Of a DNA stretch of 64,000 nucleotides, positions 8,943 through 23,673 are shown piece by piece (within the stretch, counting starts at the first letter, position 1; every line of letters begins with the position of its first letter). A program made the position numbers and the translations under genes. The stretch covers positions 256,001-320,000 of the forward strand of contig CAXXTF010000001.1 in assembly GCA_963665775.2 (NCBI GenBank). The letters run 5' to 3'. The notes beneath the pieces were generated by a model that was given only the letters and a program-made list of their open reading frames with translations, was not told the origin of the DNA and searched no databases. The stretch is from Dehalococcoidia bacterium. Lineage in GTDB: Bacteria; Chloroflexota; Dehalococcoidia; SM23-28-2; RBG-16-64-32.

Positions 8943-9170
8943 ATGAAAAGAAAAGCGGGCACCCTCCTACCGATCGAGCTGTCCATCCTGGAAGCGGGCA
9001 TCGACCAGCACATGCACCAGCGCTATGAGTACGACGGCGATGACTATGTACAAATCAAGTACGATGGCATTGGGGCAGGGAGCGCGCCCGTCACACCGGC
9101 TGGCCCCGCGGCGCCGGTACCGCCTAGCGCGTCCGCGGGTCCAAGGCGTCCCGCAGCCCGTCGCCGATGA
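8943..9170 (+). pseudogene. Probable truncated transcriptional regulator (PadR-like N-terminus) fused to unrelated sequence
   Basis: MKRKAGTLLPIELSILEAGI, with TTGACA upstream; the sequence loses coherence after about 20 codons. Confidence 0.3.
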
Positions 9171-10038
9171 AGGTAAACGCCATCATGGTAACGGCGATCG
9201 CCACGGCCGGGTAGACCACCAGCATCGGGGTGGCGAATACCGCCCGATAGCCGGAGTCCACCATCCCGCCCCAGGTGGCCGTCGGCGGCGCGATGCCGAC
9301 GCCGATGAAGCTGAGGGCGCTCTCCGCGAAGATGGCCAGAGGCACCCCGAAGGTGAGCACCACGATGAGCGGCCCCATGCTGTTGGGCAGCATATGTACC
9401 AGCGTGACGCGAGTGCCGCCGGCCCCTACCGCTCTGGCCGCCGCGACGTACTCCCGCTCCTTGAGGGAAAGCATCTGTCCCCGCACCAGCCGCGCCACCG
9501 TCACCCAGCCAACGAGCGAGATGGCGAGGATAATCACCATCAGACTCCCACCGGGCACCTCGACGTCCTCCAGCACTTGCCTCAGCAGAATGATCGCCAG
9601 CAGGTCCGGGAAGGCGTAAGTCAGGTCTGTGAAGCGCATCAGCAGATTGTCGACCAGGCGACCGCCCATGGCCGCCGCCGCCCCGATGGGCAGCGCTATG
9701 AAGAGAATCGCGACCTGGCTGAGGATGCCGACCGACAGCGAGACGCGGGCGCCGTGGATCAGCCGACTCAGCACATCGCGGCAGGTGCCGTCCGTGCCCA
9801 GCAGGTGCTCAGCGCTGGGACCGCGAAGGGCTCCCGTCGCGCAGTCCTGAGCGTTCGGGTCGTGGGGCGCCACAACATCCGCAAAGACCGCCACCAGCAC
9901 CAGGCTCGCCACGACAATGAGGCCCAGCATGGCCAGCCGGTTCCTTAGCATTCGGCGTAGCGCCTGCCTCCAGAGGGAGCGAGCCTCCTCCGCGGGCTCC
10001 AGCCAGCCCGCCCTGGCCGTCTGTGTGATCCCTGCCAT
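9124..10038 (-). CDS. Oligopeptide ABC permease (OppC/DppC-like)
   Basis: HLLGTDGTCRDVLSRL, EYVAAARAVGA (EAA loop), GDGLRDALDPR. Confidence 0.92.
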   Translation of the reverse strand: MAGITQTARAGWLEPAEEARSLWRQALRRMLRNRLAMLGLIVVASLVLVAVFADVVAPHDPNAQDCATGALRGPSAEHLLGTDGTCRDVLSRLIHGARVSLSVGILSQVAILFIALPIGAAAAMGGRLVDNLLMRFTDLTYAFPDLLAIILLRQVLEDVEVPGGSLMVIILAISLVGWVTVARLVRGQMLSLKEREYVAAARAVGAGGTRVTLVHMLPNSMGPLIVVLTFGVPLAIFAESALSFIGVGIAPPTATWGGMVDSGYRAVFATPMLVVYPAVAIAVTMMAFTFIGDGLRDALDPRTR

Positions 10039-10041
10039 ACC

Positions 10042-10989
10042 CTATGTCCTGATCCGCGGATCGACCACGGAGTACATCATGTCCACCATCAGATTCGCCA
10101 CCACTATCACCGCAGCGTAGAAGAGCGTCACCCCCATGATCACCCCATAGTCTCGCTGGAAGACCGAAGTGACAAACTGCTTACCGATCCCCGGGATCCC
10201 GAATACGGTCTCGACGATGAACGATCCGGTCACCAGGCTGGCCGCCAGCGGCCCCGCCACGGTCAGGATCGGGATCGAGGCGTTCCGGGCAACGTGGCGC
10301 ATGAGAATCGACCGCTCCCGTAGCCCTTTCGCCTCAGCCGTGCGCACATAGTCCTGCTGGAGCACCTCCACCACGGCCGCTCGCGTGACTCGAGCCAGAT
10401 AGGCGGCTGGCAGCATCCCCAGGGTGATGGTAGGCAAGATCGCCTGCCTGGGGTCGGGCAAGAGCCACCACTTCTGCTCCCAGCCGAACACCGGAAGCCA
10501 TCCCAACTGCACGCCGAACACCACGATAAGCAGGATCCCTAGCACAAAGCTGGGAGTGCTGGCGCCCAACGTGGCGAAGGTCACGGACAGGTAGTCCACG
10601 AGGGTGTTCTGTTTCAGGGCAGCCAAGACGCCCAGGGAGACCCCCACCACCACCGCGAACACCAGGGCGAACAGCCCCAGGACGGCCGTTACCCCCAGAC
10701 CATCCACGATAATGCCGGACACGGAACGACCCTGTAGCTGAAAGGAGATGCCCAGATCGCCCTGGATGGCGTTCCCGCTAAAGGTGAGGAACTGCCGCCA
10801 GAGGGGTTCATCCAGGCCGTACTTAGCGTCCAGCTGCCGCTCCAGCGTGCTGGAAACGGGCCGTCCACTGGAATCCCACGGGCCTCCCGGCACCGCGTGC
10901 ATAAGCAAGAAGGTGACGACGGCTACGAAAAACAGAACCGGCGCCAGCCAGAGCAGCCGCCGGAGAACGAATGCCATCATAGCGAGCAT
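10042..10989 (-). CDS. Oligopeptide ABC permease (OppB/DppB-like)
   Basis: VPGGPW, GDLGISF, DYVRTAEAKGL, DPRI. Confidence 0.92.
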   Translation of the reverse strand: MLAMMAFVLRRLLWLAPVLFFVAVVTFLLMHAVPGGPWDSSGRPVSSTLERQLDAKYGLDEPLWRQFLTFSGNAIQGDLGISFQLQGRSVSGIIVDGLGVTAVLGLFALVFAVVVGVSLGVLAALKQNTLVDYLSVTFATLGASTPSFVLGILLIVVFGVQLGWLPVFGWEQKWWLLPDPRQAILPTITLGMLPAAYLARVTRAAVVEVLQQDYVRTAEAKGLRERSILMRHVARNASIPILTVAGPLAASLVTGSFIVETVFGIPGIGKQFVTSVFQRDYGVIMGVTLFYAAVIVVANLMVDMMYSVVDPRIRT

Positions 10990-11022
10990 GGGCAGGGGGC
11001 TGCCTTAGGCAACCCCCTGCCC
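10990..11022 (-). terminator. Strong stem-loop between the binding-protein and permease genes
   Basis: GGGCAGGGGGTTGCC-TAA-GGCAGCCCCCTGCCC on the minus strand; no U-tract, so probably mRNA-stabilising or attenuating. Confidence 0.6.
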
Positions 11023-11030
11023 CGCCGTCC

Positions 11031-12739
11031 CTATCGCTCGATTATCGCGGTCTGCCAGTAGAAGAAGTCACCAGGAATACCGTCGGCACCGGTCATCAGC
11101 AGGTCCTGGACGTAGGGCTTGACCAGCCAAGCCGTCTCGTCATTGAACAGCGCACACAGGGCGACGTCCTCGTCGATGAGGACCCCCTCAGCCCGCTGCC
11201 AGAGCCTCACCGCCTCCTGGGGATCGTCCGCGGCCAGGGCGGACTCCACGGCGGCATCGTACTCGGGGTTGCTGTAACCGCCGGTGTTCAGAGCGCCATC
11301 CTCCGTCCAGAGGAGAAGCCAGTTCTGGGGATGGTGGTAGTCCTGGGTGAAGCCGATGAAGGTAAGGTCATAGTCGCCACCGAAGAACGCCTCGAAAAAG
11401 GCCGCTCCATCCAGGGGCTCAAGGTCAACGCTTAGGCCCAGGTTCTGCTTCCACTGGCCCTGTAGAAACTCCGCCCGGGTGGGGTTAGGGTCAGTGTTGA
11501 AGTAGGTCAGTTCGACGGAGGAGGTGAAGTCGGCAGGCGGCTTGGGGTCAGAACCCGATACCTGCACCGAGTCGGGATCGAACACCAGCCCCTGTCCCCG
11601 CTCAGCATCGTAGTAGGGGAGAAGGCCGGGCGGGAGCCAGGCGGTAGTAGGATTACCAAGACCCTGCTGTACTTCGTTCACGAGGGTCTCACGATCGATT
11701 GCCTGACAGACACTCTCCCGGGCGTTGAGCGTATCGAATGGTGGGTGGGTCTGGTTGAACACAATGGCGACCGTAGTGGCCTGGGCCACCCGCCGCAATT
11801 CCGGGTCGTCAGACAGTCCCCGAAGACTGGCCAGGGGCACCGGAGCCATATCCAGCCCGCCACTCTGGTAGGCGGCATAGGCTGTATTCTCATCCTGGAT
11901 GATCGAAAAGACGATGCGCTCCAGGGTCGGACGCATATCCTGGTCCCAGAAGTTAGGGTTCCGCTCCAGGACGATGCGTTCGCCGTGATCCCAGGCCGCC
12001 AATCGGAAGGGTCCACTGGCCACCAGGTTGCCGGCTTCCGTCCAAACAGTGTTGGCGATGTCACCATGGCTCTCGATGACGTCCTGACGGAGGGCGGCAG
12101 TGGGCCAGAGGGACATTTGAAGGTTGAAGGTCGGTGTCGGCTGGATGAGCGTTACCTGAAGGGTGTGATCGTCCAGGGCACGGACGGCCAGGGCCTGGCG
12201 CAACGACTCGATCGTCCCCTCGTCCGCGTCGACAGCCTGGGAAAGCTCAGCCCCACCCTCGACGATGGTGGTGTAGTAGGTGTTGCCGTAGTAGGAGCCA
12301 ATACTGGGGTCCATGAGCCGCTGGAGGCCGTAGACGAAGTCCTTGGCCTGGATCGGCCGCCCGTCCTCCCAGACGGCATCCTCGCGCAGCTTGCGCGCAG
12401 CTTGAAGGTATAGGTAAGACCGTCCCCGCTGATGCCACCGTTCTCCCGGTTGGGGACCTCCACGGCCACATATGGATAGAGCTCATTTACAGTGGGATCG
12501 AAGCGGAGAAGCGTGGCAAAGATGTTCTTGGCCACCATCGCCTCCTCAGGGAAGGCGGCGAGGCTCGGATCGATGTAGTCGGGCTCGGCGCCTAGGGCCA
12601 CGCGCAGGGTCTGGTCTTCGGCCAGCCGGCCGAAGGATCCGCCATCCCCATCTTGCCCACAAGCAATCGCAGCAACAAGGGCGGCCAGAGCCACCAGAGC
12701 GATCGGCCAGAAACGCCATCTGTTAGGTAACAATCTCAT
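11031..12739 (-). pseudogene. Oligopeptide-binding lipoprotein (OppA), frameshifted
   Basis: Lipobox AIAC. An 11-bp tandem duplication CGCGCAGCTTG at 12383-12404 breaks the frame; removing it restores YTFKLREDAVWEDGRPIQAKDF. Confidence 0.88.
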
Positions 12740-12856
12740 TGCGCGCCATCCCCTTAACCTACTTACCTGCGGCAGGACACATCTTGTCCCACCTAAATAA
12801 AAAGATGGTCTGCGCGGGTTTGTGTTACATGTTCTGGCCGGAACTTTTGAGAAATC

Positions 12857-13414
12857 TCAGGAGAACGATGGATAATTAGATGAGTGATCGGGCGGGCCTA
12901 GCCGCCGTATCCGCGGCAGGAACAGCTCTCCTAGAGTGATCACCAAGCCGGCGGCGATGACCAGATCGCCAACGCTGAAGGCGTTGATCGAAGTTGGGTT
13001 TTTCCAAACCAGCGTATCGGTGAGAAACCAGAGGCGGGTGTCCTCTCGGGCCAAGAGGACATCTTTAGATTGCGGCACCCACTCACCTAGGGCTAGACCT
13101 TCTGACGGCCGGCCGATCCGCTCCAGGGTGTCGGGGCTCACGGGCATCAAGCCGCCATTGCTGGCGATAGCGACGAAGTTCAACAGCAGGCCCACGCCGA
13201 TGATCATGAGCCCCGGTCGCCGCAGGTTGGCCAAGACGAACACCAGCAGCAAGGGATAGGAAGAGACAAGCAGAACCCGCCGCGGGATATCGCTGAAGCC
13301 CAGCGGGCCAAAGATGGCGAGCAACTGCAGGGCAAGGGCCAAAAAAGCCAGTGGCCCGAGGCGGATCACCACCTTCGGGAACCACAAGCGCACGCCGAAC
13401 CTAAGACAGCGCAA
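12857..13414 (-). CDS. DUF5317-like multi-pass membrane protein
   Basis: Hydrophobic; ANLRRPG, LNFVAIASNGGLMPV and LTD...FSVGDLVI motifs as recalled for DUF5317; the start may be a few codons downstream. Confidence 0.75.
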   Translation of the reverse strand: MRCLRFGVRLWFPKVVIRLGPLAFLALALQLLAIFGPLGFSDIPRRVLLVSSYPLLLVFVLANLRRPGLMIIGVGLLLNFVAIASNGGLMPVSPDTLERIGRPSEGLALGEWVPQSKDVLLAREDTRLWFLTDTLVWKNPTSINAFSVGDLVIAAGLVITLGELFLPRIRRLGPPDHSSNYPSFS

Positions 13415-13479
13415 ACCGGGGAGGCGAAACCCCTCCGCGCAAGCCGGGACGGCCTATTCTGTTGTGGGCGATCGAACTC

Positions 13480-13569
13480 CTATCCTCGCCAGAGCGGTGC
13501 CGCAGCGGCGGCGACGAGGGCGCCGATCACTAGAAGCGAGTAGGCCATATAAGTAAGTCGTGCCTTCAT
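13480..13569 (-). CDS. 29-aa hydrophobic micro-peptide MKARLTYMAYSLLVIGALVAAAAAPLWRG
   Basis: Below the ORF-track cutoff; strong SD (GAGGGAGGGG) before ATG; own promoter; signal-peptide-like with a short Trp-containing tail. Confidence 0.75.
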   Translation of the reverse strand: MKARLTYMAYSLLVIGALVAAAAAPLWRG

Positions 13570-13613
13570 GATACCCCTCCCTCTCGGTATTACCCGAGTC
13601 AATGTAACCTATT

Positions 13614-13641
13614 AGTATACCAATTGCTAAAGGGATGTCAA
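13614..13641 (-). promoter_or_regulatory. Sigma70-type promoter for the peptide/DUF5317 genes
   Basis: TTGACA-N16-TATACT with an extended -10 TG, in an AT-rich patch. Confidence 0.65.
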
Positions 13642-13779
13642 GGGATAAATATAAGGATTTCGAAAAAAAAGCCCGTAAAGGACTTTTGCGAGCTATTATC
13701 GTCAACCGAAGCTATTACGGTCAACTGGAGGCGCCATCCGCTTCCCCTCGGGCTAGTATCCCCGGCGTCCCTCCCCAGA

Positions 13780-14073
13780 TCAGCTGTCAGCGCACCAGAT
13801 GGCCACCATCGGTTCGCCATCGGGGCTTTCGGCCGGCACGTATCGCACCATGTGCAGGTCCGCCCCGCTGCAACCGCCAACGTAAATGGCGTACTCCACC
13901 GTCACATCCGAGGTGCTGCCCGGCCAGGGCCATGAACACTCATCTTCAGACACGGCACAGCTAGTGACGGCCGAAGGAGGGCTCTCCGCGTCCGCAGACC
14001 GCGACCCGATGCTCTGACCGGCCACCAGGGCGAACAGCAGCATCGCCAACAACGCGAAAAAGCCTAATCGCAT
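13780..14073 (-). CDS. Small secreted Cys/Trp-containing hypothetical protein
   Basis: Signal peptide MRLGFFALLAMLLFALVAGQS, RBS GGGGAG, four Cys. Confidence 0.6.
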   Translation of the reverse strand: MRLGFFALLAMLLFALVAGQSIGSRSADAESPPSAVTSCAVSEDECSWPWPGSTSDVTVEYAIYVGGCSGADLHMVRYVPAESPDGEPMVAIWCADS

Positions 14074-14081
14074 TGTCTCCC

Positions 14082-14171
14082 CTAGAATAGAGGACTTTGG
14101 CCGGCCACAGTGGCCAGCATCAGGGCCAGCATGGTTACCACTAAGTTAAGATTCATGAAGTTAAGATTCAT
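14082..14171 (-). CDS. 29-aa hydrophobic micro-peptide MNLNFMNLNLVVTMLALMLATVAGQSPLF
   Basis: Strong SD GAGGAGGAG; in-frame 15-bp tandem duplication at the N-terminus; shares VAGQS with the downstream ORF. Confidence 0.6.
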   Translation of the reverse strand: MNLNFMNLNLVVTMLALMLATVAGQSPLF

Positions 14172-14253
14172 ATCGCTCCTCCTCTGCCACCAGTCTCCCA
14201 GAGCCCTCTCGCCAAAATCTCGCCGAAAGACCGAGAGGTGACGCGCGAAGGGG

Positions 14254-14286
14254 AAAAAGGAAGCGGCCCCCTCATCGGGGGCCGCT
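14254..14286 (-). terminator. Rho-independent terminator of the STAND/TPR regulator gene
   Basis: AGCGGCCCC-CGATGAG-GGGGCCGCT followed by TCCTTTTT. Confidence 0.75.
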
Positions 14287-14308
14287 ATCGAGGCTACCGT
14301 CTCTTGCT

Positions 14309-17300
14309 CTAGGCCGGCGATCTACCTCTGCTGATCTGGCGCTGAATCTCGTCGAAGTCCTGAGCTGTTTCCCCGCCGAGGTTTTCGGAGATGATTTGAG
14401 CATAGCGATTGTAGCTGTACTTAGCGGCTTCCAGGTGACCGGACTGAATGTAGTTGGTCATCAGACGATACCAGGCCGCCTCATTCAACTCGTCCACGCC
14501 GAGGATGCGCTGGCAGAGCTCGGCGCTACGCTTGAATTCGCCTGCCTGGCTGTAGGCCGCCGCCAGCGTCGTGAGGAGCCGCATGTACTGCTCCTCTGTC
14601 TGCCAGCGCAGCGTCTCCGCCCACTCCGAGTAGAAGTCCGAGGCGAAGGGACCGTTGTACTGCGCCAGCGCCTTCTCCTGCAAGGCCAACGCCTCTGGGC
14701 CGCCCTTCGGCGCCCTGTCCGCCTGCTGCAACGCCTGCTGAAATGCTGCCACGTCAAAGGGGAAATGCCCCTGGGGATCCAGGATGTACCGTCCTGAGTC
14801 CTTGGCGATGCAGTCAGGATAGAGGGCCTGCCGCAGGCGATAGAGGTTCGAGTGGAAGGCGCTGCCGGTCTTTTCGTCGGGAAGGTCGGGCCAGAGTGCG
14901 GCCACGATCTCATCCTTGCGCAAGGGGCGCCGGTGGCAGAGGAAGAAGAAGAACATCTCCTTGCTCTTCTCGCTGCGCCACTCCAGATCCGTGATCTCTC
15001 GTCCGTCGATCTCCACGCGAAGGTTGCCCAATCCGTACGCCTGTACCGTCGTGCCGGCGGACTCCGGCTGCGCTGTCTCCTGCGAAGCCTCCGCCTGCGC
15101 TCCCGCTGGGGCCCTGATCACCTTCAGCAACTGTCCAAAGTAACCATCGGCTATCTTGTTGGCGGCCGCATACTGAACCAGCAGCGGATTCCGCGCAGCC
15201 TCGACTTTCAGGAAGTGATCGTAGCCCAACCCCTGCACCAGGTTGGCCACAGTCTCCAGGCTCTCCAGGGCCAGCCGCTTGCGCTTAAGCGAGAAGTAGA
15301 CACCGCCCAGATGGAAGTGCGCGGTGGCCAGCTCTCGCTTGGCGTCCGCCTGCTTGAGGAGGCGACTGGTCTCTTCCAGAGACGATACCGCCTCCTTAGG
15401 CTGACCGCGGTCGCGCTGGATGAGGCCCCGCGTTAGAGTGCAAAGGCCCAACTCAAACACGCCCCCCCGCTCTTCCGCCTCAGCGGTGGCCCGATTCGCC
15501 CAAGACTCCCCATCGGTGATATCTCCCATGAGCCGGTATGTATTAGCGATGGCGTCCATAGTATAGATGCGAATGTAGGCCTCGTCCAAGTCGGAACCCC
15601 GTTCCAAGGCGGAGTTGTACAACTCCTGGGCGCCCTGGTACTCGCCCCTGTCCCGGCGGATATCGCCCAGGCAGGTCAGGAGATAGGCCTCTGCCTCCGA
15701 GCGTATCTCCTCCTCCACCTTCTCCAGGGCCTGCCGGAAGACCGCGTCGGCTTGATCGAAGTCACCCTGGAGGTAGTGCAGCATGCCCAGGTTATTCAGA
15801 TTCTGCACTAGCTTCTTGTCGTTGCCCAGCTTGGACCAGCGCTGGCGCGCCCGCATCAGATAGTCCGCTGCCTCCGAAAGCCGGCCCAGGGCTACCAAGG
15901 CAACGCCGATCTGGTCGCTCACGTGGGCAATGTCATAGGACTCGCCCTGAGCCTCGTAGACCTCCAGCGCACCCCTCAGCTCGTTCAGCTCCTTGTCGAA
16001 CTCGCCGCACATTCCGTAGGTGATACCCAACTCCTTGCGGGCCTCAGTCAAGAGAGAGGTAGGTCCATCGTGTTTGAGGAGTAGGGAGCGAGCCCTCGTC
16101 AGCACTTCCTCCGATTCCTTGTAGTCACCCTTGACCCGCAGGCACATTCCCTTCGTGACCAACGCCTCGGCCAGGGAAACCCACTCCTTCTCGGCCTCAA
16201 AGGAGACGATCGCCTCGGCCAGCAATGATAGGGCCCTGTCCATCTGATGCAGATAGTGAAGCATGCGCGCCTTCCACAGAATCAGCTTCGGCTGCGCCGC
16301 CAGCTCCTCCGGCGGGATCGCCTCCAGCCAGCCGGCAAGGGTATCCCACTTCCCCTCTCTGAACAGCTGCCAGCCGACCCGCTCCGTAACTTGCACGATT
16401 CGCTCCCAGGCGCTGGCCTGAAGGTAATGGTACACGGCCTCTTCCCACTCCTCCGCCTTCTCCTGGAGGCCGGCCGCCCTGAGGTTCAAGTCCCGGAAGC
16501 GCTGCGGCTCCTGGGCCCGCAAATGGCTCATGAGGAAGGCCCGTACCAGCTTGTTATAGCGATAGCGCGTCCGACCGTCGTCCTCCTGGACGATGAACAG
16601 ATTCCGCCGCTCCAGGAAGTTGATCGTCTCTTCAGCATCGTCAATCTCGAGCAGTTCATTCATGAATTCCGATTCGACCGTTCTAGGCACCGCGCTGCCC
16701 AACAGGAACTCCCGCACCTCCGACGGCAGCGAGTCAAACTGCTCCACCTTAATGTATGTGGCCAGCGTGTCCGAGCCCCGGAGCTGCTCCGGCGAGATGG
16801 AGGTGCGGGCTAGTCGCACCTTATCCGCCAGGAGAATGAGAGCTGCTGCCCAGCCCTCCGTGACCTCCGCAAGATGCTGACCATCGTCCAGGGAGATTTC
16901 CTTCCCCAGAACCTCTCGGAATAGACGTACGACTTCTTCGCAGCTGAAGGCGAAATCGGAGCTGGCGATCGTGGCCACCTCCTGGCGGGCGGACATCAGA
17001 GGCAGCACCGAAAGCTGGGGCATAGTGCGGGCAGCCAGGATCAGGTGGCAGTTCTCCGGCACCCGGTAGATCCACCCCTCCAGCGCCTGCCGCAGCTCCG
17101 GCGGCGCGCCGTCCAGATAGTGGAAGTCGTCGAGGATCATCAGGTAAGGCTCCCCGACGGCCTGCACAGCCGTGATCAACAGGTCGACCGCCTCTTCCGG
17201 GGATATCGGTTGGCCCTGGCGAAGGGCATGGGCCAGATTCCCTCCGAAGCTGGGGAATTGACGCTGGCCGGAGGCGAGGAGGTAGCGCAGGAAGCTCTCC

Positions 17301-17566: not shown

Positions 17567-17633
17567 ACCCTGCTGGACGCGGGCATCGCCGATGTTTGGC
17601 GTCCAATGTTAAGACGGGCTGAGCGGCCCGGTG

Positions 17634-19009
17634 TTACTGCCGGCCGGCATGATTAATCTGCACATCTTCCGGCTCGGCTGCCCCGGCACGATCGGGTCGG
17701 GTAGCCTCGACGCATGATTCGGCCGCGTCCGCCGGTGGCGCTGGATATCCCTGCCGGCTCCCGATACGAGAGTTGGTGCCATCATCTTCGGGCGCCGCCA
17801 AGGTCACCCGGTTGCGGCCGTTCAACTTGCTGCGATAGAGAGCCACGTCAGCCTCGTACAGCAGCTGATCGGGTCGCCGACAGGGCTCCGGAAAGGCAGC
17901 CACGCCCAGGCTTATGGTGACCCGCAGCGGCTCTGGCGAATCGCGGAGAGGGCGCTGATCATGGCCTCCACGGCCGCCCGCAGCCGCCCGGCCATGATCA
18001 GCGCCCTCTCCGCATCAGTGTCATGCAGCAGGATAAAGAACTCCTCGCCCCCGAAGCGTCCGGCCACATCGTCACCGCGCAGGGTCCGGCGCAGCACGCC
18101 GCCCACCACCCGCAACACCTCGTCACCGGCCAGATGGCCCAGAGAGTTGTTGACGTTTCGCAGGAGATCCAGATCGGCCATTATTACCGCCGTCGGTCGC
18201 GGCTCCCTCTGCAAGAGGGCGACCTCTTCCCGGAAAGCGTCCAGAGACCTTCGCGCTGTGAGCAGCCCGGTCTTGGCATCGTGGTACGCCTCTTCCTGAA
18301 GCCCGGGCACAAACAGGGCTCGGTAGAAGAGGAAAAGAGGCGCGATGGCCAGGGCGACGAAAGGCGGGGTCACCGTCCACATGACGGCCATGCCGACCCC
18401 CACACAGGCCAGGGAAATATCCGTCCCTACGCTCTGCCAGGCCAGGATACCCGATTCCCTGATCCCTATTCCCCGCGCCAGGCGCAGGACCGTCGCCACC
18501 ATGGCGTGATTCAGGACAGTAAGGGTGGATGCGGTCACTAACGCGGCCCATACCACCTGCCAGGACCCGATCTCGACGCTGTCACCCGCTACGATACGGA
18601 AATTGGCCCAGGCGACCAGGACGTTCAGCAGGTACGTGGCCATGTTGAACGTCTGGATGTACCAGGGGTAGCGATACTTTAGCCACTCCGGCAGCATGGC
18701 CAGCACCACAAGCAAGACCAGCAGCGGCGGCTCCAGGAGCAGAATCGCGGCCAGGAGGAAGGCCGGTGTGGCGTGATACGATTGTCGGTTGGGAGCATCG
18801 ACCATGAAGAGCTGGGCCGCCGCCGTCAGGGGTACCAGCAGCGCGAAGGCCAGCAGCGCCTCCGTATCCGGCAGGCCAGGGCGGTCCCCTATAGAGGGGC
18901 GGACCACTACAAAAAGGATGACAGCGCCCACGGCCAGGGCGTAGATGACCGCCAGGTATATCCGGGCCAACGTCGACAGAGCAAGCGGTGGATTCTCCTC
19001 CGCCGGCAT
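17634..19009 (-). pseudogene. Membrane-sensor diguanylate cyclase (GGEEF), frameshifted
   Basis: About 7 TM segments, then DAKTGL, VNNSLGHLAGD, RFGGEEF. The C-terminus (VTISLGVA...ADVALYRSKLNGRNRV) is in another frame after about 17945. Confidence 0.85.
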
Positions 19010-19074
19010 CGCGGCCGATGGTTCAGCGGGCGTTTCTGCGGGCAGAGCCTGCTTCCTTACCCCACGGCTTCACC

Positions 19075-20411
19075 TCAGTCGCCCACGAGGACGCTCCGCC
19101 ACAAAACGCTGTCGTAGAGGATTTCGCCTGTCTCCGGGTCGATAAGGTCATTGGGGGTAGCGCCATGGTTGGCCTGACCATGGGTTTTGGCATGGATAGC
19201 GGCAAAAGCATCGACCCGCGGCGCCTGGGAACCGTCCAGTGGCTGGCCCGTCCGCATGAGACGGAACTTGACTTGGTCCGGCGTGAGATCCGGGTCATCC
19301 TCCAGCATGAGAGCGACGACTCCAGAGACGACGGCCGCCGAAGGAGATGTACCGCTCAGGCGCAGGTAGCGGCCATCCACCACGGCCTCCGGCATCGCCC
19401 GCGCTAGGTAGGAGCCACGGCTGGCCAGAGCGGAGAGGATCCCCTGACCCGGGGCAATCACCTCCGGCTTGGCGTAACCGTCCACGGTCCGGCCGCGGCT
19501 GGACCAATCGACCACCGTATCGTCGGCGGTATCGGCAGTGCCGGCGTCATCAAAGGCGCCCACGGTGATGACGTAGGGATCGTTAGCCGGGGCGTGATCC
19601 ACGGCGAACTCCTCATCGCCGTCGTTGCCGGCTGCCACAACGACCACAATGTCGTGGAACCAGGCCTGCTCCACCGCCGCGTCCAGCGGGTCCTGGAGGT
19701 AGCTGTCGGCGACGGAGGAGACGAGGAGTTCGCCACCCGGATGTCGTACTCATCCCGGTGGTCCACCGCCCACTGCAAGGCGGCTACCACGTCGCTGGCC
19801 AGGGCGCGACCCTCGCGGTCGGCCACCTTAAGGCTTAATATCTGGGCCCCGGGGGCTATCCCCGTGTAGGCATCCGCCTCACCGGCGATCCCACCGGCCA
19901 GGCTGCCGCTAAGGTCATTCCCATCCGCGACACCGCTGTCGATAACGGCGACCGTTATGCCCTCGCCGCTGATCCCCTCGTCCCAAGCGGCGACGGCGTT
20001 GACAGCGAACGGGTACGCCACTCCCAGATCAGATGTGCCGTCCTGGTCGTCGTCATTGCCAGACGCCATCATTTCGGCGTCCAGCGACACCACCAGTACG
20101 GCCGGATCGCGGGCCAGCCGGTCGATCTCCGTTGGCGGCAGCGTCGCCGCGAAGCCATCGATCAGCGGCAGCTGCGCCGAGGTCTCGACCGAGCCCGCCA
20201 GTTGGCCGCCCGCCCGGGCGGTCCCCTCCCGCACCCGCACTATCACGGGTACGTCTTCCCCTGGGTGCTGCGCCGTGTAGACGGCCACCCCGAGACGCAC
20301 CCTCTCCTGCGACCCCATATCCGCTTCGCCGAGCCCCATCCAGACCAGGGCAGCCAAGACGGCAAAGGCGGTCAATCCCCGAATCAAGTTGCGCCCAGAC
20401 ATCCTCTTCAT
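19075..20411 (-). pseudogene. Secreted S8 (subtilisin-like) serine protease, disrupted
   Basis: Signal peptide and propeptide, VAVIDSG (Asp), AAGN, SGTSPS (Ser). The HGT catalytic-His segment is missing and there is a frameshift near 19725. Confidence 0.85.
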
Positions 20412-20454
20412 GCTCCTGCCCTCACTATCAAGCCATACCCGACCGAATCTTTAC

Positions 20455-22158
20455 CCCGAATCCACCGAAGGACGGCCTTGGGGACAGTCCTTGAAGAAGC
20501 CATCGGGTGCTCCTCTGAATCTGGGATAATGGTTTTGGAACAGAAACCAGCCCGGAAACAAGGAGCACCCAATAGATGCTGCCACAGAACAAACCCGACC
20601 GTATCCGCATCCTCTTTGACGACCATCGCCTGGTGGCCAATGCCGGCCTGCTCCTGCCAGCCACCCTAGCCCGGCACCTGGGCCTGCGGGAACTCGTCGA
20701 CCATCACCTTGACCTCGGCGGAGCGCCGGGACGGGCGAACACTGGGGACAAGATGCTGACGCTGGTCGCTTCCGCGCTGGCAGGCGGCGACTGCATCGAC
20801 GACGCCGATGCGCTGCGCGCTGGTGGGACGGTCGGTGTTCTAGGCTGCGTGGTCAAGGCGCCATCCACCCTGGGGACCTTCCTGCGCAGCTTCCGGTGGG
20901 GGCATGTCCGTCAACTCGACCGCGTGAGCCGCCAGTTGTTGGCCCGGGCCTGGGCCGCTGGGGCCGGACCCGGCGACTCGCCCCTGACCATCGACCTGGA
21001 CTCGACCATCTGCGAAACCTATGGACTGGCCAAGGAGGGAGCGCGCCACCACGGCTATACCGGCGCCCGCGGCTATCACCCGCTGCTGGCCATTGCCGCC
21101 GGCACCGGCGAGGTGCTGATGTCCCGGCTGCGCGAGGGCCGGGCCAACACCGCCCGTGGCGCCGCCCACTTCCTGCGTGAGACGGTGGGGCGGGTGCGCT
21201 ACGGCGGGGCCAGGGGACAACTCACGGTGCGGGCCGACAGCGGCTTCTACGCCCACACTGTCGTTGCCGCCTGCCGGGAAATGGATGTCCGCTTCTCTAT
21301 CACCATCCGCCAGCGCGCCAGCCTGCGGGACCTGATCGAGGCGATACCAGAGGAGGACTGGACTCCCATTCCCTACTGGATGGACGGCGCCGCCGATGTC
21401 GCCGAGACGACTTACACCCCGTTCCAGACCAAGCCGGACGCCGCGCCGGTGCGGCTCATTGTCCGGCGGGTGAAGCCGATGCCCGGTTCCCAGCTCGCCC
21501 TCTTCGCCAGATACAGCTATCACGCCTTCATCACCGACCGCGATGGGGAGACGCTGGAACTGGAGGCCGATCATCGCCGCCACGCCGAGGTCGAGAACGC
21601 CATACGCGACCTCAAGTACGGCGTCGGGCTGAACCACATGCCGTCGGGGCGCTTCGCCGCCAACGGCGCCTGGCTGGCGGTCCAGGTGATGGCGCATAAC
21701 CTGGCCCGCTGGACAGCCCGCATCGGCCTGGGTCAGCAGATCGTGACCACCAAGACCCTCAGGCGGCGGGTCTTCGCTCTCGTGGGACGGATCACCCGCT
21801 CGGCGCGCCGCCTCACTTTGCATCTCCCCCGGCGCTGGCCTTGAGAAACCCAGTTCAGTCGCGCCTTGGCCCGGCTGCAAGCCATTCCATTCCCGGCCTG
21901 ACGGCCAGCCTGCAACTGACCCAACGTCCCCGCAATCTCGCGCCACCCCGGTCGCGAGAGTCCCCTGCTGCGTATCCTCTCGCCATCCCGCGCATCGCAA
22001 CTCCCGCATAGGGCCTTAGGGGCCCTGTGCGGCGACTGAAGACCGTCCGCCGGCCTCCCATCTACCCCAAGACCCCAGGCCATCTCCCCTGTAGCTCCCT
22101 CACCCACCCCCTTCCGCTGTCCTCACGCCGTCCATCCGTGTCCTTCGGTGGATTCGGG
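20455..22158 (+). mobile_element. IS1380-family insertion sequence
   Basis: 19-bp terminal inverted repeats CCCGAATCCACCGAAGGAC; 5-bp target duplication TTTAC at 20450-20454 and 22159-22163. Confidence 0.92.
20576..21844 (+). CDS. IS1380-family DDE transposase, probably with a late nonsense codon
   Basis: TIDLDST, GYHPLL, RADSGFY, HAEVENAIRDLK; the frame continues past the TGA as ETQFSRALARLQAIPFPA*. Confidence 0.9.
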   Translation: MLPQNKPDRIRILFDDHRLVANAGLLLPATLARHLGLRELVDHHLDLGGAPGRANTGDKMLTLVASALAGGDCIDDADALRAGGTVGVLGCVVKAPSTLGTFLRSFRWGHVRQLDRVSRQLLARAWAAGAGPGDSPLTIDLDSTICETYGLAKEGARHHGYTGARGYHPLLAIAAGTGEVLMSRLREGRANTARGAAHFLRETVGRVRYGGARGQLTVRADSGFYAHTVVAACREMDVRFSITIRQRASLRDLIEAIPEEDWTPIPYWMDGAADVAETTYTPFQTKPDAAPVRLIVRRVKPMPGSQLALFARYSYHAFITDRDGETLELEADHRRHAEVENAIRDLKYGVGLNHMPSGRFAANGAWLAVQVMAHNLARWTARIGLGQQIVTTKTLRRRVFALVGRITRSARRLTLHLPRRWP

Positions 22159-22195
22159 TTTACACCAAGCATGGATGCGCGGCGCAACTTATCTC

Positions 22196-23311
22196 TTACG
22201 GCCAACGCGTTGAGGAGCAGTTAAGTGCTGGTTGACAGATAGTTTGCGCCACCCGCGGGTCGAACTGCTGGCCGCCGCAGCGCTCCAGCTCTTGAGTCGC
22301 CATCTGCAGGGAGAGGACGTTGCGGTAGGAGCGGTGGGTGGTCATGGCATCGAAGGCGTCGCTCACCAGGATGATACGGGACCCGATGGGGATATCCTCA
22401 CCCGACAAGCCGTCCGGATAGCCGCCGCCATCGTAATGCTCGTGGTGATGGCCTACTATAGGTGCCGCCGCTGCCAGGGCTGGTATCCGGTTGAGGATGT
22501 CCCTGCCCACCAGCGGGTGATTCCGCACTACCGTCTTCTCTTCCTCGGTGAGGGGACCCCCCTTGAGCAGTATTCGATCGGGCATGGCCAGCTTCCCGAT
22601 GTCGTGCAGGAGAGCGGCCTCCTCGATCAGGTTCTGACGGGCTGGGGAGAGGCCTATCTCCTTCGCCACCCGCTTAGCGTACCAGGCAGCGCGGCTCGTC
22701 TGGCCGGCCAGAGCCCCCGTCTTCCGCTCCAGCGCGGCCACCAGGGCCGTTATGGGATCGCTCACCCTGCGCTTGCGCCTCCAGGCGCTGTCTTCGGCGC
22801 AGACCAGATCACCCCAGTAGCCTACTTTGTTACCGCCCACGGCCTTGGCCCAGTACATCGCCGCCTCCGCACCGTACACCAACTCCGCCTCCGAATGGGC
22901 AGACTCGGGATAGCTGGCCACCCCCAGACTGACCATCGCCTCGCCGATGGGCGTTCGCACGGCGCTCGCCACCTTCGCCCGCAGTTTCTCGGCCAGCAAG
23001 ACGGCGGCCCGCGCCGACACCTCCGGGAGGAGGGACGCCAACATGTCTCCGCCCACTCGATAGGCGGGCCCAGCCCGCGAAGCGATGACGACCCGGAACT
23101 CTTGCAGAACCCTATCGCCTATCTCCCAGCCGATGGAGTCGTTCACGAGCCGGAAGCTGTCCAGCCCGGCAACGATGACGCTTAGCGCGGTGCCTTCCTG
23201 CTCCGCCTGCCTGAAGAAGGCCGCTACCTGCTCACCGAACGCCTGATGGTCATCACCGGCAGAACCCAGGTCCAACGCCGTAGCCGGCAGGTTCACCTCT
23301 AGTGGACTCAT
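22196..23311 (-). CDS. Degenerate GGDEF plus HD-GYP c-di-GMP phosphodiesterase
   Basis: GGDML in place of GGDEF; LHDIGK, HHEHYDGGGYPDGL, DAFDAMT. Confidence 0.88.
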   Translation of the reverse strand: MSPLEVNLPATALDLGSAGDDHQAFGEQVAAFFRQAEQEGTALSVIVAGLDSFRLVNDSIGWEIGDRVLQEFRVVIASRAGPAYRVGGDMLASLLPEVSARAAVLLAEKLRAKVASAVRTPIGEAMVSLGVASYPESAHSEAELVYGAEAAMYWAKAVGGNKVGYWGDLVCAEDSAWRRKRRVSDPITALVAALERKTGALAGQTSRAAWYAKRVAKEIGLSPARQNLIEEAALLHDIGKLAMPDRILLKGGPLTEEEKTVVRNHPLVGRDILNRIPALAAAAPIVGHHHEHYDGGGYPDGLSGEDIPIGSRIILVSDAFDAMTTHRSYRNVLSLQMATQELERCGGQQFDPRVAQTICQPALNCSSTRWP

Positions 23312-23673
23312 GATCCCTCTATCGCCACTTTTCTTCTACACAACGCCACAATGAGAAGGATGCCGGAGTGGCGAAGACGTTACACTGAAAAGACCCCCAG
23401 CGCCCGACAGCCCGTAAGAGGCCAGGACGGCCTCTGGGCAAGACCGTCGGTCTACTGATTTAACGGAATAAGCTGGTGATGGCTGCTGCGAGCAAAGCAG
23501 AAGCTCTTCGCGAGACTGGGCAGGCATGGAGACTTCCTTCTGGCTGCGATGACTCCATGGATTATCGAGGGACCGGAAGAGACGCGCGGCGGCAGCTCTA
23601 AGCCGCAGCCTGGGATGGTGACCACATCCCTGTTCGCCGCTCCCTGGTATACTCTAGTCTGCCTTTCGAAGCC

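What the first reader, a model, noticed from the sequence alone, without database searches (positions are those of the whole stretch)
9124..23311. Candidate undescribed peptide-signalling/c-di-GMP system: micro-peptides, DUF5317, STAND-TPR regulator, membrane GGDEF, S8 protease, HD-GYP and Opp
Seen: apart from the inserted IS, every gene from 23311 down to 9124 is on the minus strand. The order is HD-GYP, secreted S8 protease, multi-TM GGDEF, MalT-like ATPase-TPR-BTAD regulator, two 29-aa hydrophobic micro-ORFs with strong SD sites, a small secreted protein, DUF5317, then oppA/B/C. Known: Agr and RRNPP systems pair a tiny precursor with a membrane processing enzyme, a membrane or TPR receptor, and Opp import. 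GGDEF and HD-GYP domains make and break c-di-GMP. Inference: DUF5317 matures the peptide, the TM sensor of the cyclase and/or the TPR array senses it, c-di-GMP is the output, and the S8 protease releases or quenches the signal. No histidine kinase is present, unlike Agr or ComQXP. Several parts are decayed in this copy, and the Opp link may be coincidental.
Basis: partly seen in the sequence, partly recalled or inferred. Interest (0 to 1): 0.9.

Follow-up and report, generated by a model that had tools for sequence, protein, structure and literature searches.

The report
Micro-peptide cassette with STAND-SARP regulator, DUF5317
An uncultured Chloroflexota bacterium carries a conserved set of tiny peptide genes, a large ATPase-TPR-SARP regulator, a membrane protein of unknown function and a peptide importer that together look like a new peptide-signalling circuit, while the neighbouring c-di-GMP and protease genes are not a conserved part of it.

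Summary
Comparison with 20 relatives' loci and 35 public loci splits the finding in two.

- **Conserved in Chloroflexota:** a MalT-like STAND ATPase-TPR regulator with a C-terminal SARP DNA-binding domain. It is followed by 24-32-aa micro-ORFs behind GGCGAGA direct repeats with an 11-bp period, a small Cys-rich secreted protein, and a second micro-ORF directly upstream of DUF5317. An OppABC set without ATPase genes often follows.
- **The micro-ORFs are coding.** Sequence differences are in excess at third codon positions, and the stop codon, Shine-Dalgarno site and C-terminal tail are conserved.
- **The repeat marks a small regulon.** It occurs 43 times in 17 of 26 related genomes, against 0 for a reversed control.
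- **Not conserved in this clade:** the TM-GGDEF, S8 protease and HD-GYP genes. However, DUF5317 sits directly beside GGDEF-HD-GYP genes in Actinomycetota and other phyla (10 of 35 loci), and there no micro-ORF is present.

Best reading (about 0.4): a Phr/SHP-like peptide loop with a STAND-SARP receptor. The main rival is an AfsR-AfsS-like regulator whose small ORFs are outputs. The role of DUF5317 is unresolved; it shows only a weak, local likeness to the catalytic segment of LspA.

The parts
14309..17566 (-). STAND regulator: MalT-like NOD (about residues 20-459), TPR sensor array (about 430-800), C-terminal SARP domain (winged helix plus BTAD, about 874-1080)
   Evidence: Pfam AAA_16, TPR_12, TPR_MalT and BTAD. 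PDB MalT 8bob_C E 8e-38 for residues 20-427. AfsR SARP 8hvr_I E 4e-8 and EmbR 2fez E 0.0018 for the last 246 aa. NCBIfam MalT 250 bits, below its cut-off of 537. It is the only copy in the genome.
14262..14286 (-). Intrinsic-terminator-like hairpin after the regulator gene
   Evidence: 10-pair stem with 9 GC pairs, followed by TCCTTTTTCC.
14207..14224 (-). Direct repeats GGCGAGA-N4-GGCGAGA (11-bp period) upstream of microA; putative SARP binding site
   Evidence: Exact match. The same block precedes nearly every microA copy in relatives. 43 exact matches in 17 of 26 related genomes against 0 for the reversed control.
14082..14171 (-). microA, 29 aa (MNLNFMNLNLVVTMLALMLATVAGQSPLF): basic/polar N-terminus, hydrophobic helix, conserved tail VA(A/G)(Q/G)SP(L/F)(F/I/L)
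   Evidence: 24 homologous ORFs in 13 of 20 relatives' loci plus the window, in 1-3 tandem copies. Differences by codon position 1651/1120/2824.
13780..14073 (-). sec97: 97-aa secreted protein with 4 invariant Cys; its signal peptide resembles microA
   Evidence: tblastn hits in 13 of 20 relatives' loci. Alignment A4 has invariant C39, C46, C68 and C94. No Pfam, NCBIfam or PADLOC family.
13570..13650 (-). Promoter-like TTGACA-16-TATACT (13641-13614) and two covarying inverted repeats upstream of microB
   Evidence: 11 of 12 hexamer matches, with TG before the second hexamer. Alignment A3: 82% of cells paired, with 0 of 500 shuffles reaching the observed covariation score.
13480..13569 (-). microB, 29 aa (MKARLTYMAYSLLVIGALVAAAAAPLWRG): single hydrophobic helix, then a small-residue run, Pro and an aromatic tail
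   Evidence: Present 42-104 nt upstream of DUF5317 in 20 of 20 relatives' loci. Differences by codon position 645/490/1011.
12857..13414 (-). DUF5317 membrane protein, four TM helices, loop 86-147; invariant N79, G87, G88, M90, K117, D133, S147, G149, D150, P167, R168
   Evidence: PF17248 E 2e-26. Alignment A1. AF2 model with pLDDT 90. Single copy in the genome. The start codon is uncertain: the closest database form has 178 aa.
11031..12739 (-). oppA (SBP_bac_5) pseudogene: 11-bp tandem duplication at 12382-12403 shifts the frame
9124..10989 (-). oppB (10042-10989) and oppC (9124-10038); no ABC ATPase gene in the locus
   Evidence: Pfam BPD_transp_1 and OppC_N. No Walker A plus LSGGQ pattern in the window or in 12 relatives' loci. 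OppD/F-type domains occur elsewhere in the genome.
17634..19009 (-). TM-GGDEF diguanylate cyclase gene (GGEEF motif), frameshifted near 17948-17960; neighbour, not conserved in the cassette
   Evidence: A sister strain's contigs (X8, X9) lack one base at 17948 and one at 17960. By arithmetic this puts the two parts in one frame (inference).
19075..20411 (-). S8 subtilase gene with signal peptide, frameshifted near 19720; neighbour, not conserved in the cassette
   Evidence: S8 hits in 2 of 20 relatives' loci.
20455..22158 (+). IS element (DDE_Tnp_1_4 transposase 20576-21844), 19-nt perfect inverted repeats, TTTAC target duplication, inserted between genes
22196..23311 (-). Degenerate GGDEF (GGDML) plus HD-GYP phosphodiesterase; one of 3 HD-GYP genes in the genome
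   Evidence: 33-36% identical over about 350 aa to the GGDEF-HD-GYP genes that directly precede DUF5317 in other phyla.

Best explanation
The conserved unit is a Chloroflexota cassette built around a STAND regulator with a MalT-like ATPase, a TPR sensor and a C-terminal SARP DNA-binding domain. The TM-GGDEF, S8 and HD-GYP genes are lineage-specific neighbours of it.

**Shown, or strongly indicated by comparison**
- The regulator gene is followed by tiny coding ORFs.
- Each microA copy sits behind GGCGAGA heptamers repeated every 11 bp. This is the layout SARP activators use.
- A second tiny ORF, microB, always directly precedes DUF5317.
- An OppABC set without ATPase genes often follows.

**Inferred mechanism**
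- The micro-proteins insert into or cross the membrane through their signal-peptide-like helix.
- They are cut after the small-residue run (..VAG|QSPLF, ..AAA|PLWRG).
- The 5-7-residue tail is taken up by Opp and binds the TPR sensor.
- Binding releases the STAND switch. The SARP domain then activates the repeat-bearing promoters: microA-sec97, and elsewhere in the genome Tad-pilus and other genes. This would make a positive-feedback 'pump-probe' loop like Phr/Rap or SHP/Rgg.
- DUF5317 is the membrane partner of microB-type peptides, possibly the enzyme that cuts them.

In this strain the circuit is eroding: oppA is broken.
For: **Cassette conservation**
- The regulator lies upstream of DUF5317 in 17 of 20 relatives' loci and in 17 of 35 public loci.
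- microB is present in 20 of 20 loci.
- microA is present in 13 of 20 loci, in 1-3 tandem copies.
- Micro-ORFs with a ..[AG][AG]AP.. tail also occur in Anaerolineaceae and Chloroflexia loci.

**Coding evidence**
- Differences are in excess at the third codon position: 1651/1120/2824 for microA and 645/490/1011 for microB.
- Stop codon, SD site and tail are conserved.

**Regulator**
- MalT NOD, E 8e-38.
- AfsR SARP, E 4e-8.
- BTAD, E 6e-18.

**Operator**
- 11-bp-phased heptamers occur upstream of microA.
- Distant loci carry different heptamers with the same period before their single micro-ORF: CGCGAGA, CCGTAAGA, GTGACA.
- The layout matches the SARP rule quoted in the Introduction of PMC10936776.
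- There are 43 exact sites in 17 of 26 genomes against 0 for the reversed control. There are none in family f2 (0 of 4), which also lacks DUF5317 (0 of 6).

**Opp link**
- Opp genes lie next to DUF5317 in 11 of 20 loci.
- They are retained beside regulator, micro-ORFs and sec97 in G010, where DUF5317 and microB are gone.

**DUF5317 with microB**
- The co-fold gave weak support: score 0.50 against 0.00 for the best of 3 controls.
- The mark was reached by 58 of 80 solved complexes and 2 of 110 mismatched pairs. At 0.60 or under it was reached by only 7 of those 80 and by both mismatches.
- The runs agree in at least 85% of contacts, and the partner's pLDDT is at least 65.
- My own alignments were used, so these counts hold only roughly.
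Against: - No expression, secretion, cleavage or binding data exist, and no RNA run holds the stretch.
- The microA tail (QSPLF-like) is nearly the same across genera whose regulators are only 50-65% identical. Known RRNPP pheromones diversify quickly, so this conservation suits a structural or sorting motif as well as a signal.
- A third repeat-driven micro-ORF family (M..RTRN.IKW..) is hydrophilic and has no signal peptide. This fits small ORFs acting as outputs.
- The Opp set lacks ATPases in cis.
- Opp is absent from several loci whose contigs continue past DUF5317: L031, L036, L038, L041, L043, L045 and L048.
- oppA is broken in the window. In the sister strain oppB has a 1-base deletion and microA a 13-base deletion.
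- DUF5317 also occurs with HD-GYP and no micro-ORF (10 loci). Its role need not involve peptides.
Confidence: 0.4

Rival explanations
1. AfsR-AfsS-like circuit. The STAND-SARP regulator senses some other ligand through its TPR domain and switches on adjacent small ORFs as outputs. microA and microB would be small membrane proteins that modulate DUF5317 or other membrane complexes, and the IKW family would be a small cytoplasmic protein. There is no autoinduction, and Opp is a nutritional neighbour.
For: - A SARP-NOD-TPR regulator that activates an adjacent small ORF through 11-bp direct repeats is the known AfsR/afsS arrangement (PMC10936776, abstract and Introduction passages).
- The repeats also precede non-peptide genes: a Flp pilin in G005, a TadE-like gene in G000, and other proteins.
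- The hydrophilic IKW micro-ORFs are driven by the same repeats.
- The tail is conserved across genera.
- The weak DUF5317-microB co-fold (score 0.50 against control 0.00; calibration counts as given under the best explanation) fits a small-subunit role equally well.
Against: - Opp stays linked to the regulator and micro-ORFs across many genera, even after loss of DUF5317.
- The micro-ORFs look like signal peptides with a short conserved C-terminal tail, not like AfsS.
- microA is a truncated copy of a genuine signal peptide, that of sec97.
Confidence: 0.35
2. Peptide, DUF5317, TM-GGDEF, S8, HD-GYP and Opp form one circuit with c-di-GMP as the output.
For: - DUF5317 directly follows GGDEF-HD-GYP genes in 10 of 35 public loci from other phyla.
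- The window's HD-GYP protein is 33-36% identical to those proteins over about 350 aa.
- The genome has only 3 HD-GYP loci and about 6 GGDEF loci in 2.35 Mb. One of each lies within 10 kb of DUF5317.
- In L066 the regulator, a micro-ORF, DUF5317 and a PAS-HD-GYP gene lie together.
Against: - Among 20 relatives' loci of about 20 kb, GGDEF-domain hits occur in 2 and lie several kb away. There were no HD-GYP-domain hits, and S8 hits occur in 2.
- HD-GYP-linked loci have no micro-ORF: 0 of 10.
- No GGCGAGA repeat lies near the GGDEF, S8 or HD-GYP genes in the window.
- S8 and GGDEF are pseudogenes here.
Confidence: 0.1
3. Bacteriocin or RiPP-like locus. The tandem micro-ORFs are toxin or precursor peptides, DUF5317 gives immunity or maturation, and the STAND-SARP protein is the pathway regulator.
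For: - Precursor-like genes occur in tandem multi-copy.
- SARPs classically control secondary-metabolite clusters (PMC10972967, abstract in the search listing).
- The TPR region gives a weak hit to RiPP-associated TPR models, far below their cut-offs.
Against: - No modification enzyme, peptidase-domain ABC exporter or radical-SAM gene was seen in the conserved cassette.
- The conserved part of the peptide is a 5-residue tail with no Cys, Ser or Thr pattern.
- The N-terminus looks like a Sec signal peptide, not a leader peptide.
Confidence: 0.07

Closest known systems
RRNPP-type peptide quorum sensing (Rap/Phr, PlcR/PapR, NprR/NprX, Rgg/SHP, AimR/AimP) of Bacillota and their phages
   Same: A small propeptide gene lies next to a cytoplasmic TPR-containing receptor. 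The precursor has a hydrophobic N-terminal part and a short C-terminal tail that would be the mature signal. Opp genes could bring the peptide back in. Propeptide genes occur in tandem.
   Different: - The receptor is a 1085-aa STAND ATPase with a SARP output domain, not a compact TPR-HTH or phosphatase.
- Its only sequence likeness to a Rap protein is a generic TPR hit (6t3h, E 5.7e-5).
- The phylum is Chloroflexota. The RRNPP survey I searched (term search of PMC10075063) does not mention Chloroflexi.
- The peptide tail is conserved across genera.
- A DUF5317 membrane protein is part of the unit.
AfsR-AfsS of Streptomyces (SARP-NOD-TPR regulator activating an adjacent small ORF)
   Same: The same three domain types occur (SARP, STAND NOD, TPR). 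11-bp-phased direct repeats overlap the promoter of an adjacent small ORF. The SARP domains align with E 4e-8.
   Different: - The domain order is reversed, with the SARP domain at the C-terminus.
- The NOD is MalT-like.
- The small ORFs are 24-32-aa signal-peptide-like proteins, not a 63-aa AfsS.
- No AfsK-type kinase was seen.
- Opp and DUF5317 are linked.
MalT (STAND transcription activator of E. coli)
   Same: The N-terminal NOD is homologous (8bob_C, E 8e-38; NF003420, 250 bits). A TPR-like sensor follows.
   Different: The score is below the equivalog cut-off of 537 bits. The output domain is SARP rather than LuxR-type HTH. The target genes are micro-ORFs.
Lipoprotein signal peptidase LspA (Peptidase A8)
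   Same: Both are four-helix membrane proteins. hhalign places the two invariant Asp of DUF5317 (D133 and D150, in ..FLTD.. and ..FSVGD..) on the ..VTDF..FNVAD.. segment of LspA. That this segment holds the catalytic dyad is recalled, not tested. The micro-ORFs carry a lipobox-like L/V-A-G/A run, but with Gln, Ala or Pro where the Cys would be.
   Different: - hhalign probability is only 9.7% (P 0.0033, 40 columns).
- No Pfam A8 hit, no PDB sequence hit, and no LspA among the fold matches.
- The long loop lies between helices 3 and 4, not after helix 1.
- A canonical LspA is present as well, in 24 of 26 genomes.
HD-GYP/DUF5317 gene pairs of Actinomycetota and other phyla
   Same: The same DUF5317 family (34-43% identity) and the same GGDEF-like plus HD-GYP architecture as the window's 22196-23311 gene.
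   Different: There the two genes are adjacent or overlapping and no micro-ORF or STAND regulator is present. In the window they are 9 kb apart and separated by five other genes and an IS.

Membership tests
DUF5317 (PF17248) | Match to the Pfam model above its gathering score | tested here: met
   93.2 bits against a cut-off of 25, E 2e-26. All 33 aligned relatives match.
SARP transcription activators | OmpR-type winged helix followed by a BTAD domain | tested here: met
   BTAD E 6e-18, residues 937-1078. AfsR SARP domain 8hvr_I E 4e-8 and EmbR 2fez E 0.0018, covering residues about 874-1080.
SARP transcription activators | Target promoters with direct repeats spaced 11 or 22 bp, the 3' repeat about 8 bp from the -10 element | tested here: inconclusive
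   The 11-bp period is met, and the repeats are conserved and enriched. The -10 element and transcription start are not mapped. A CACTG(T/G)-like hexamer lies 7-11 nt after the last repeat. Binding was not tested.
STAND NTPases (MalT-like) | NOD/NB-ARC-type ATPase followed by a repeat sensor domain | tested here: met
   MalT 8bob_C E 8e-38 for residues 20-427. TPR_12, five stretches.
MalT equivalog | Full-length match above the NCBIfam cut-off and a LuxR-type HTH | tested here: not met
   250 bits against a cut-off of 537, covering only model positions 4-442 of 903.
RRNPP quorum sensing | Small propeptide gene adjacent to a TPR-containing cytoplasmic receptor gene | tested here: met
   microA lies 138 nt downstream of the regulator gene. 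The arrangement is conserved in 13 of 20 loci, and a micro-ORF is present in all STAND-linked loci.
RRNPP quorum sensing | Receptor homologous or structurally alike to Rap/NprR/PlcR/Rgg/AimR | tested here: inconclusive
   Only a generic TPR hit to a Rap protein (6t3h, E 5.7e-5). No structural comparison was made.
RRNPP quorum sensing | Secretion and cleavage of the propeptide, Opp-dependent re-import, and peptide binding that changes receptor activity | not testable with these tools
   Only sequence features and Opp linkage are available.
AfsR-AfsS system | N-terminal SARP, then NOD, then TPR; AfsS-like small protein as target | tested here: not met
   The domain order is NOD-TPR-SARP. The small ORFs are hydrophobic and 24-32 aa. 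Homology to AfsS was not tested.
Peptidase A8 (LspA) | Match to the family profile | tested here: not met
   No PF01252 hit at E up to 10 for any of 33 DUF5317 members. hhalign against 25 LspA gave probability 9.7%.
Peptidase A8 (LspA) | LspA-like fold with two Asp at the outer ends of neighbouring helices | tested here: inconclusive
   No LspA among the Foldseek or VIA-align rows. The local alignment of the two Asp has P 0.0033.
c-di-GMP turnover enzymes | GG(D/E)EF motif in the cyclase; HD and GYP motifs in the phosphodiesterase | tested here: met
   GGEEF in 17912-19009, although the domain is split by a frameshift. HD..HHEHYDGGGYP in 22196-23311, whose own GGDEF-like domain reads GGDML.

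The most novel reading that the evidence does not exclude
Chloroflexota have a peptide quorum-sensing system of their own. DUF5317 would be a distant, LspA-like intramembrane aspartyl peptidase. It would cut Cys-less, lipobox-like micro-preproteins (..VAG|QSPLF, ..LAAG|APFMMP) and release 5-7-residue pheromones. Opp would re-import these, and the TPR sensor of a STAND-SARP activator would read them. The activator would control Tad pili and other surface genes through GGCGAGA repeats. This would be the first cytoplasmic-receptor peptide signalling circuit outside Bacillota. It would also assign a function to DUF5317, whose HD-GYP-linked forms in other phyla would then couple the same chemistry to c-di-GMP.
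Probability: 0.15. Interest if true: 0.9.

Novelty: new variant of a known kind. Interest (0 to 1): 0.62.

Why it matters
- Peptide signalling through imported peptides and cytoplasmic TPR receptors is described for Bacillota and their phages (abstract of PMC10075063). A conserved analogue with a STAND-SARP receptor in uncultured Dehalococcoidia would widen that picture.
- It would give DUF5317 a testable role. No paper in the searched library mentions the family.
- Independently of the signalling model, three families of conserved, unannotated 24-32-aa genes and a clear 18-nt regulon marker give concrete handles for studying regulation in a phylum with few genetic tools.
- The repeat sites point to Flp/Tad pili as a likely controlled trait.

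Tried and rejected
**DUF5317 fold and relatives**
- hmmsearch of the DUF5317 profile against PDB sequences gave 0 hits at E up to 10.
- Foldseek of the pLDDT-90 model against PDB gave nothing at E 0.001 or better.
- VIA-align wide gave a best Z of 8.0, on generic helical bundles and designed proteins. This is within the tool's stated background.
- The ESM Atlas gave no usable hit.
- Pfam at E up to 10 gave only noise. This included one Peptidase_U4 hit in 1 of 33 members at E 0.07.
- LspA membership is therefore rejected as a family assignment and kept only as a weak mechanistic lead.

**Other searches that gave nothing useful**
- The sec97 structure had mean pLDDT 60.8, too low for a fold search, so none was run.
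- Rfam on 9000-24000 gave only a chance miRNA hit, far below its gathering score.
- PADLOC gave no defence-system match beyond a generic TPR hit and HD-domain noise.
- Expression: no RNA holder is listed for 12800-14400.
- Literature: 'DUF5317' gave 0 papers. 'RRNPP' with 'Chloroflexi' gave 1 unrelated paper. BTAD, signaling peptide and oligopeptide permease gave no paper linking them. Supplementary files were not opened and may hold relevant tables.
- A broad ORF listing of GC-rich distant loci was too noisy to use. Targeted tblastn and motif scans replaced it.

**Assembly error considered and rejected**
- I considered that the frameshifts were long-read assembly errors.
- This is rejected because short contigs of independent runs agree with the window and because the oppA lesion is an 11-bp duplication.

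- The look-up of encoding contigs is marked closed and was not called.

Full report
**What is in the window**

All genes from 9124 to 23311 lie on the minus strand, except an IS transposase. Pfam identifies the following.

- OppC (9124-10038) and OppB (10042-10989).
- An SBP_bac_5 OppA split over two frames (11031-12314 and 12152-12739).
- DUF5317 (12857-13414, E 2e-26).
- A 1085-aa protein with AAA_16, TPR and BTAD domains (14309-17566).
- A multi-TM GGDEF protein (17912-19009) whose domain ends in another frame (17634-17903).
- An S8 subtilase in two frames (19075-19674 and 19458-20411).
- A DDE_Tnp_1_4 transposase (20576-21844, plus strand).
- A degenerate-GGDEF plus HD-GYP protein (22196-23311).

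Between the regulator and DUF5317 lie three small genes.

- microA (14082-14171, 29 aa, MNLNFMNLNLVVTMLALMLATVAGQSPLF).
- A 97-aa protein with a signal peptide and four Cys (13780-14073).
- microB (13480-13569, 29 aa, MKARLTYMAYSLLVIGALVAAAAAPLWRG).

Both micro-ORFs have strong Shine-Dalgarno sites.

**The decay is real**

- oppA carries an 11-bp tandem duplication at 12382-12403.
- GGDEF and S8 change frame near 17950 and 19720.
- The IS spans 20455-22158, with perfect 19-nt inverted repeats and a TTTAC duplication on both sides. It lies between the S8 and HD-GYP genes.
- Contigs from runs X1 and X3 (two studies) match 9000-20477 with 0 and 1 differences. One of them may be the window's source.
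- Runs X8 and X9 (two further studies) hold a sister strain with 31-32 substitutions and seven indels.
- Among those indels are single-base omissions at 17948 and 17960. By arithmetic these would put the two GGDEF parts in one frame; this is my inference.
- The sister strain also has a 1-base omission in oppB (10557), two 1-base insertions in oppA, and a 13-base omission inside microA (14098).
- The lineage is therefore losing parts of the locus in different ways.

**Which organism**

Named relatives of the DUF5317 protein, and the public loci, come from Dehalococcoidia and other Chloroflexota metagenome-assembled genomes. The genome held has 2.35 Mb in 2 contigs. It has one DUF5317 gene and one such regulator.

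**What is conserved**

DUF5317 occurs in 26 of 41 related genomes. I fetched up to 20 kb around it in 20 loci and searched them with the window's proteins.

| Neighbour of DUF5317 | Relatives' loci (of 20) |
|---|---|
| Regulator upstream on the same strand | 17 |
| sec97 | 13 |
| Opp genes | 11 (one on the opposite strand) |
| GGDEF-domain hits, several kb away | 2 |
| HD-GYP-domain hits | 0 |
| S8 hits | 2 |

- Of the three loci without the regulator, two have 10 kb of upstream sequence with a different gene there, and one is cut by the contig end.
- A scan for small ORFs with an SD site found microB 42-104 nt upstream of DUF5317 in all 20 loci.
- The same scan found microA in 13 loci, in 1-3 tandem copies. 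Counting the window, that is 24 ORFs.
- The microA consensus is ..(K/R)LNW(I/L)VT.LA..LA.VA(A/G)(Q/G)SP(L/F)(F/I/L)-stop.
- In the most distant loci a single 27-32-aa ORF lies between the regulator and DUF5317. It ends ..AG(T/A)APW.(F/W)P or ..AGAPFM.P.

A scan of one genome per species found 35 loci, 6 of which duplicate the first set.

- 17 have the regulator upstream. All 17 have a micro-ORF, including 47-48-aa forms in an Anaerolineaceae and a Chloroflexia genome.
- 10 have a GGDEF-HD-GYP or HD-GYP gene directly beside DUF5317. One of these, L066, also has the regulator. They come from Actinomycetes, Thermoleophilia, Gaiellaceae, Sysuimicrobiota, an unclassified bacterium and the Anaerolineaceae genome.
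- The nine HD-GYP loci without a regulator show no micro-ORF of this type.
- Of the remaining nine loci, five have neither neighbour and four are cut off upstream.

**The micro-ORFs are genes**

- Across homologues, differences fall mainly on third codon positions: 1651/1120/2824 for the last 18 codons of microA, and 645/490/1011 for the first 20 codons of microB.
- The window's QSPLF tail uses CAA AGT CCT CTA where relatives use CAG AGC CCG CTG.
- Stop position, SD site and start codon are conserved.
- microA resembles the first 24 residues of sec97 in the same locus. It probably arose as a truncated copy of that signal peptide together with its promoter.

**The regulator and its sites**

- Residues 20-427 match the MalT NOD (8bob_C, E 8e-38).
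- The last 246 residues match the SARP domain of AfsR (8hvr_I, E 4e-8) and EmbR.
- The protein is thus a STAND switch with a TPR sensor and a SARP output. It has the same three domain types as AfsR, in reverse order.
- Upstream of nearly every microA copy lies GGCGAG.-N4-GGCGAGA-N4-GGCGAGA, followed by ..CTGAGACACTG.. and the SD site.
- In the window the exact GGCGAGATTTTGGCGAGA is at 14207-14224. It lies just after a strong terminator that ends the regulator gene.
- Distant loci have other heptamers with the same 11-bp period before their single micro-ORF.
- According to the Introduction of PMC10936776 (passages read), SARP target promoters carry direct repeats 11 or 22 bp apart, with the 3' repeat 8 bp from the -10 element.
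- The exact 18-nt pattern occurs 43 times in 17 of 26 related genomes. The reversed control occurs 0 times. The pattern is missing from family f2, which also lacks DUF5317.
- In the window's genome the pattern has three exact sites: the microA promoter; a site in a Flp/Tad pilus locus, where a decayed microA start is fused to a TadE-like gene; and a site before a 471-aa acidic repeat protein.
- In relatives, extra sites precede an Flp pilin, a homologue of the repeat protein, and two other small protein families.
- This is the footprint of a small regulon that includes surface structures.

**microB, DUF5317 and Opp**

- microB has its own near-consensus promoter-like site (TTGACA-16-TATACT with TG).
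- Two inverted repeats upstream keep their pairing through compensating changes. Their role is unexplained.
- DUF5317 relatives share invariant N79, G87, G88, M90, K117, D133, S147, G149, D150, P167 and R168.
- The model (pLDDT 90) has four membrane helices and a 60-residue loop between helices 3 and 4.
- No solved structure or family matched.
- A profile comparison with 25 LspA proteins from the same genomes gave one local alignment. It places ..FLTD133.. and ..FSVGD150.. on ..VTDF..FNVAD.. (probability 9.7%, P 0.0033, 40 columns). That this LspA segment holds the catalytic pair is my recollection.
- The micro-ORFs end their helix with a lipobox-like L/V-A-G/A run that lacks the Cys. I treat the protease idea as a lead only.
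- Canonical LspA is present as well.
- Co-folding DUF5317 with microB gave weak support: 0.50 against 0.00 for the best of 3 controls. The full calibration counts are given in the For line.
- The Opp set never has ATPase genes beside it, by a pattern scan of the window and 12 loci. OppD/F-type genes lie elsewhere in the genome.
- In G010, DUF5317 and microB are missing, but the regulator, micro-ORFs, a sec97 remnant and OppABC remain together. Opp is therefore tied to the regulator and peptide part, and microA does not strictly need DUF5317.

**How it most likely works**

Comparison shows a STAND-SARP regulator, repeat-bearing promoters, coding micro-ORFs, and the microB-DUF5317 pair. The rest is inferred.

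- The micro-proteins are exported or membrane-inserted and are cut after the small-residue run.
- The tail peptides return through Opp and bind the TPR sensor.
- The SARP domain then activates the repeat promoters. This would be a positive-feedback loop like Phr/Rap or SHP/Rgg.
- I put this at about 0.4.

Three observations count against it.

- The tail is conserved across genera.
- A third, hydrophilic micro-ORF family (M..RTRN.IKW.., 26-29 aa) is driven by the same repeats in some genomes.
- Opp is missing from several loci.

These observations fit the main rival (about 0.35). In that reading the circuit is AfsR-AfsS-like and the small ORFs are outputs.

DUF5317 does pair with HD-GYP genes elsewhere, and here one of the genome's 3 HD-GYP genes and one of about 6 GGDEF genes lie within 10 kb. 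But relatives with the peptide cassette do not keep them, and HD-GYP-linked loci have no micro-ORF.

**Novelty**

I found no paper on DUF5317 and none linking RRNPP-type signalling or BTAD regulators with peptides and Opp in Chloroflexota.

Noticed in passing
L129 (G010:C16) about 6700-6910; L026/L045, L058, L060; L044: A third micro-ORF family of 26-29 aa (M..R(T/I)R(N/K).IKW..). It is hydrophilic and basic, occurs in 2-3 tandem copies, and each copy found by the motif scan lies behind the same GGCGAGA-type repeats. It is not present in the window.
   Followed up: partly
G000:C2:1307160 (L088): An exact GGCGAGA-N4-GGCGAGA site lies inside a Flp/Tad pilus locus (prepilin peptidase, three tandem Flp pilins). 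There a decayed copy of the microA start is fused in frame to a TadE-like gene, followed by a TadG-like gene. In G005 the same repeat precedes an Flp pilin gene (L150).
   Followed up: partly
G000:C2:832168 (L087) and G000:C2:390886 (L091): Further repeat sites. One lies before a 4-codon remnant ORF and a 471-aa protein full of EEAAAALVR-like repeats; a homologue with the same site is in G004 (L145). A one-mismatch site lies before a 34-aa hydrophobic ORF next to what looks like a tRNA gene.
   Followed up: partly
window 13575-13650 (minus strand): Two short inverted repeats upstream of microB keep complementarity through compensating changes in 16 loci. One lies between the -35-like and -10-like hexamers. 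The other lies in the leader and is followed by a conserved GGTAATC. Whether they are an operator, an RNA hairpin or both is unknown.
   Followed up: partly
window 20455-22158: The IS region has summed contig depth of 10^4-10^5 in all four runs laid, against about 10 for the flanks. Contigs break at its ends. Relatives of this IS are therefore very abundant in those samples.
   Followed up: no
window 10557, 12282, 12723, 14098, 17948, 17960, 19087-19110, 19886-19939: A sister strain in runs X8 and X9 differs by indels exactly in oppB, oppA, microA (13 bases), GGDEF and S8. The two strains are decaying independently at this locus.
   Followed up: partly
L160 (G010:C16:1-17000): This genome is 97% complete and has no DUF5317 hit. 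It keeps the regulator, IKW micro-ORFs, one microA, a sec97 remnant and OppABC, with about 480 nt where microB-DUF5317 would be.
   Followed up: yes
L033, L034 (genus g4): Two tandem microA copies with their repeats, sec97, microB, DUF5317 and Opp are present. Upstream lies a 212-aa metallo-beta-lactamase-fold-like gene instead of the regulator. The regulator was not found within 10 kb.
   Followed up: no
window 9124-12739 and 12 relatives' loci: The OppABC set beside the cassette never has an ABC ATPase gene next to it. Three OppD/F-type domains lie elsewhere in the genome.
   Followed up: partly
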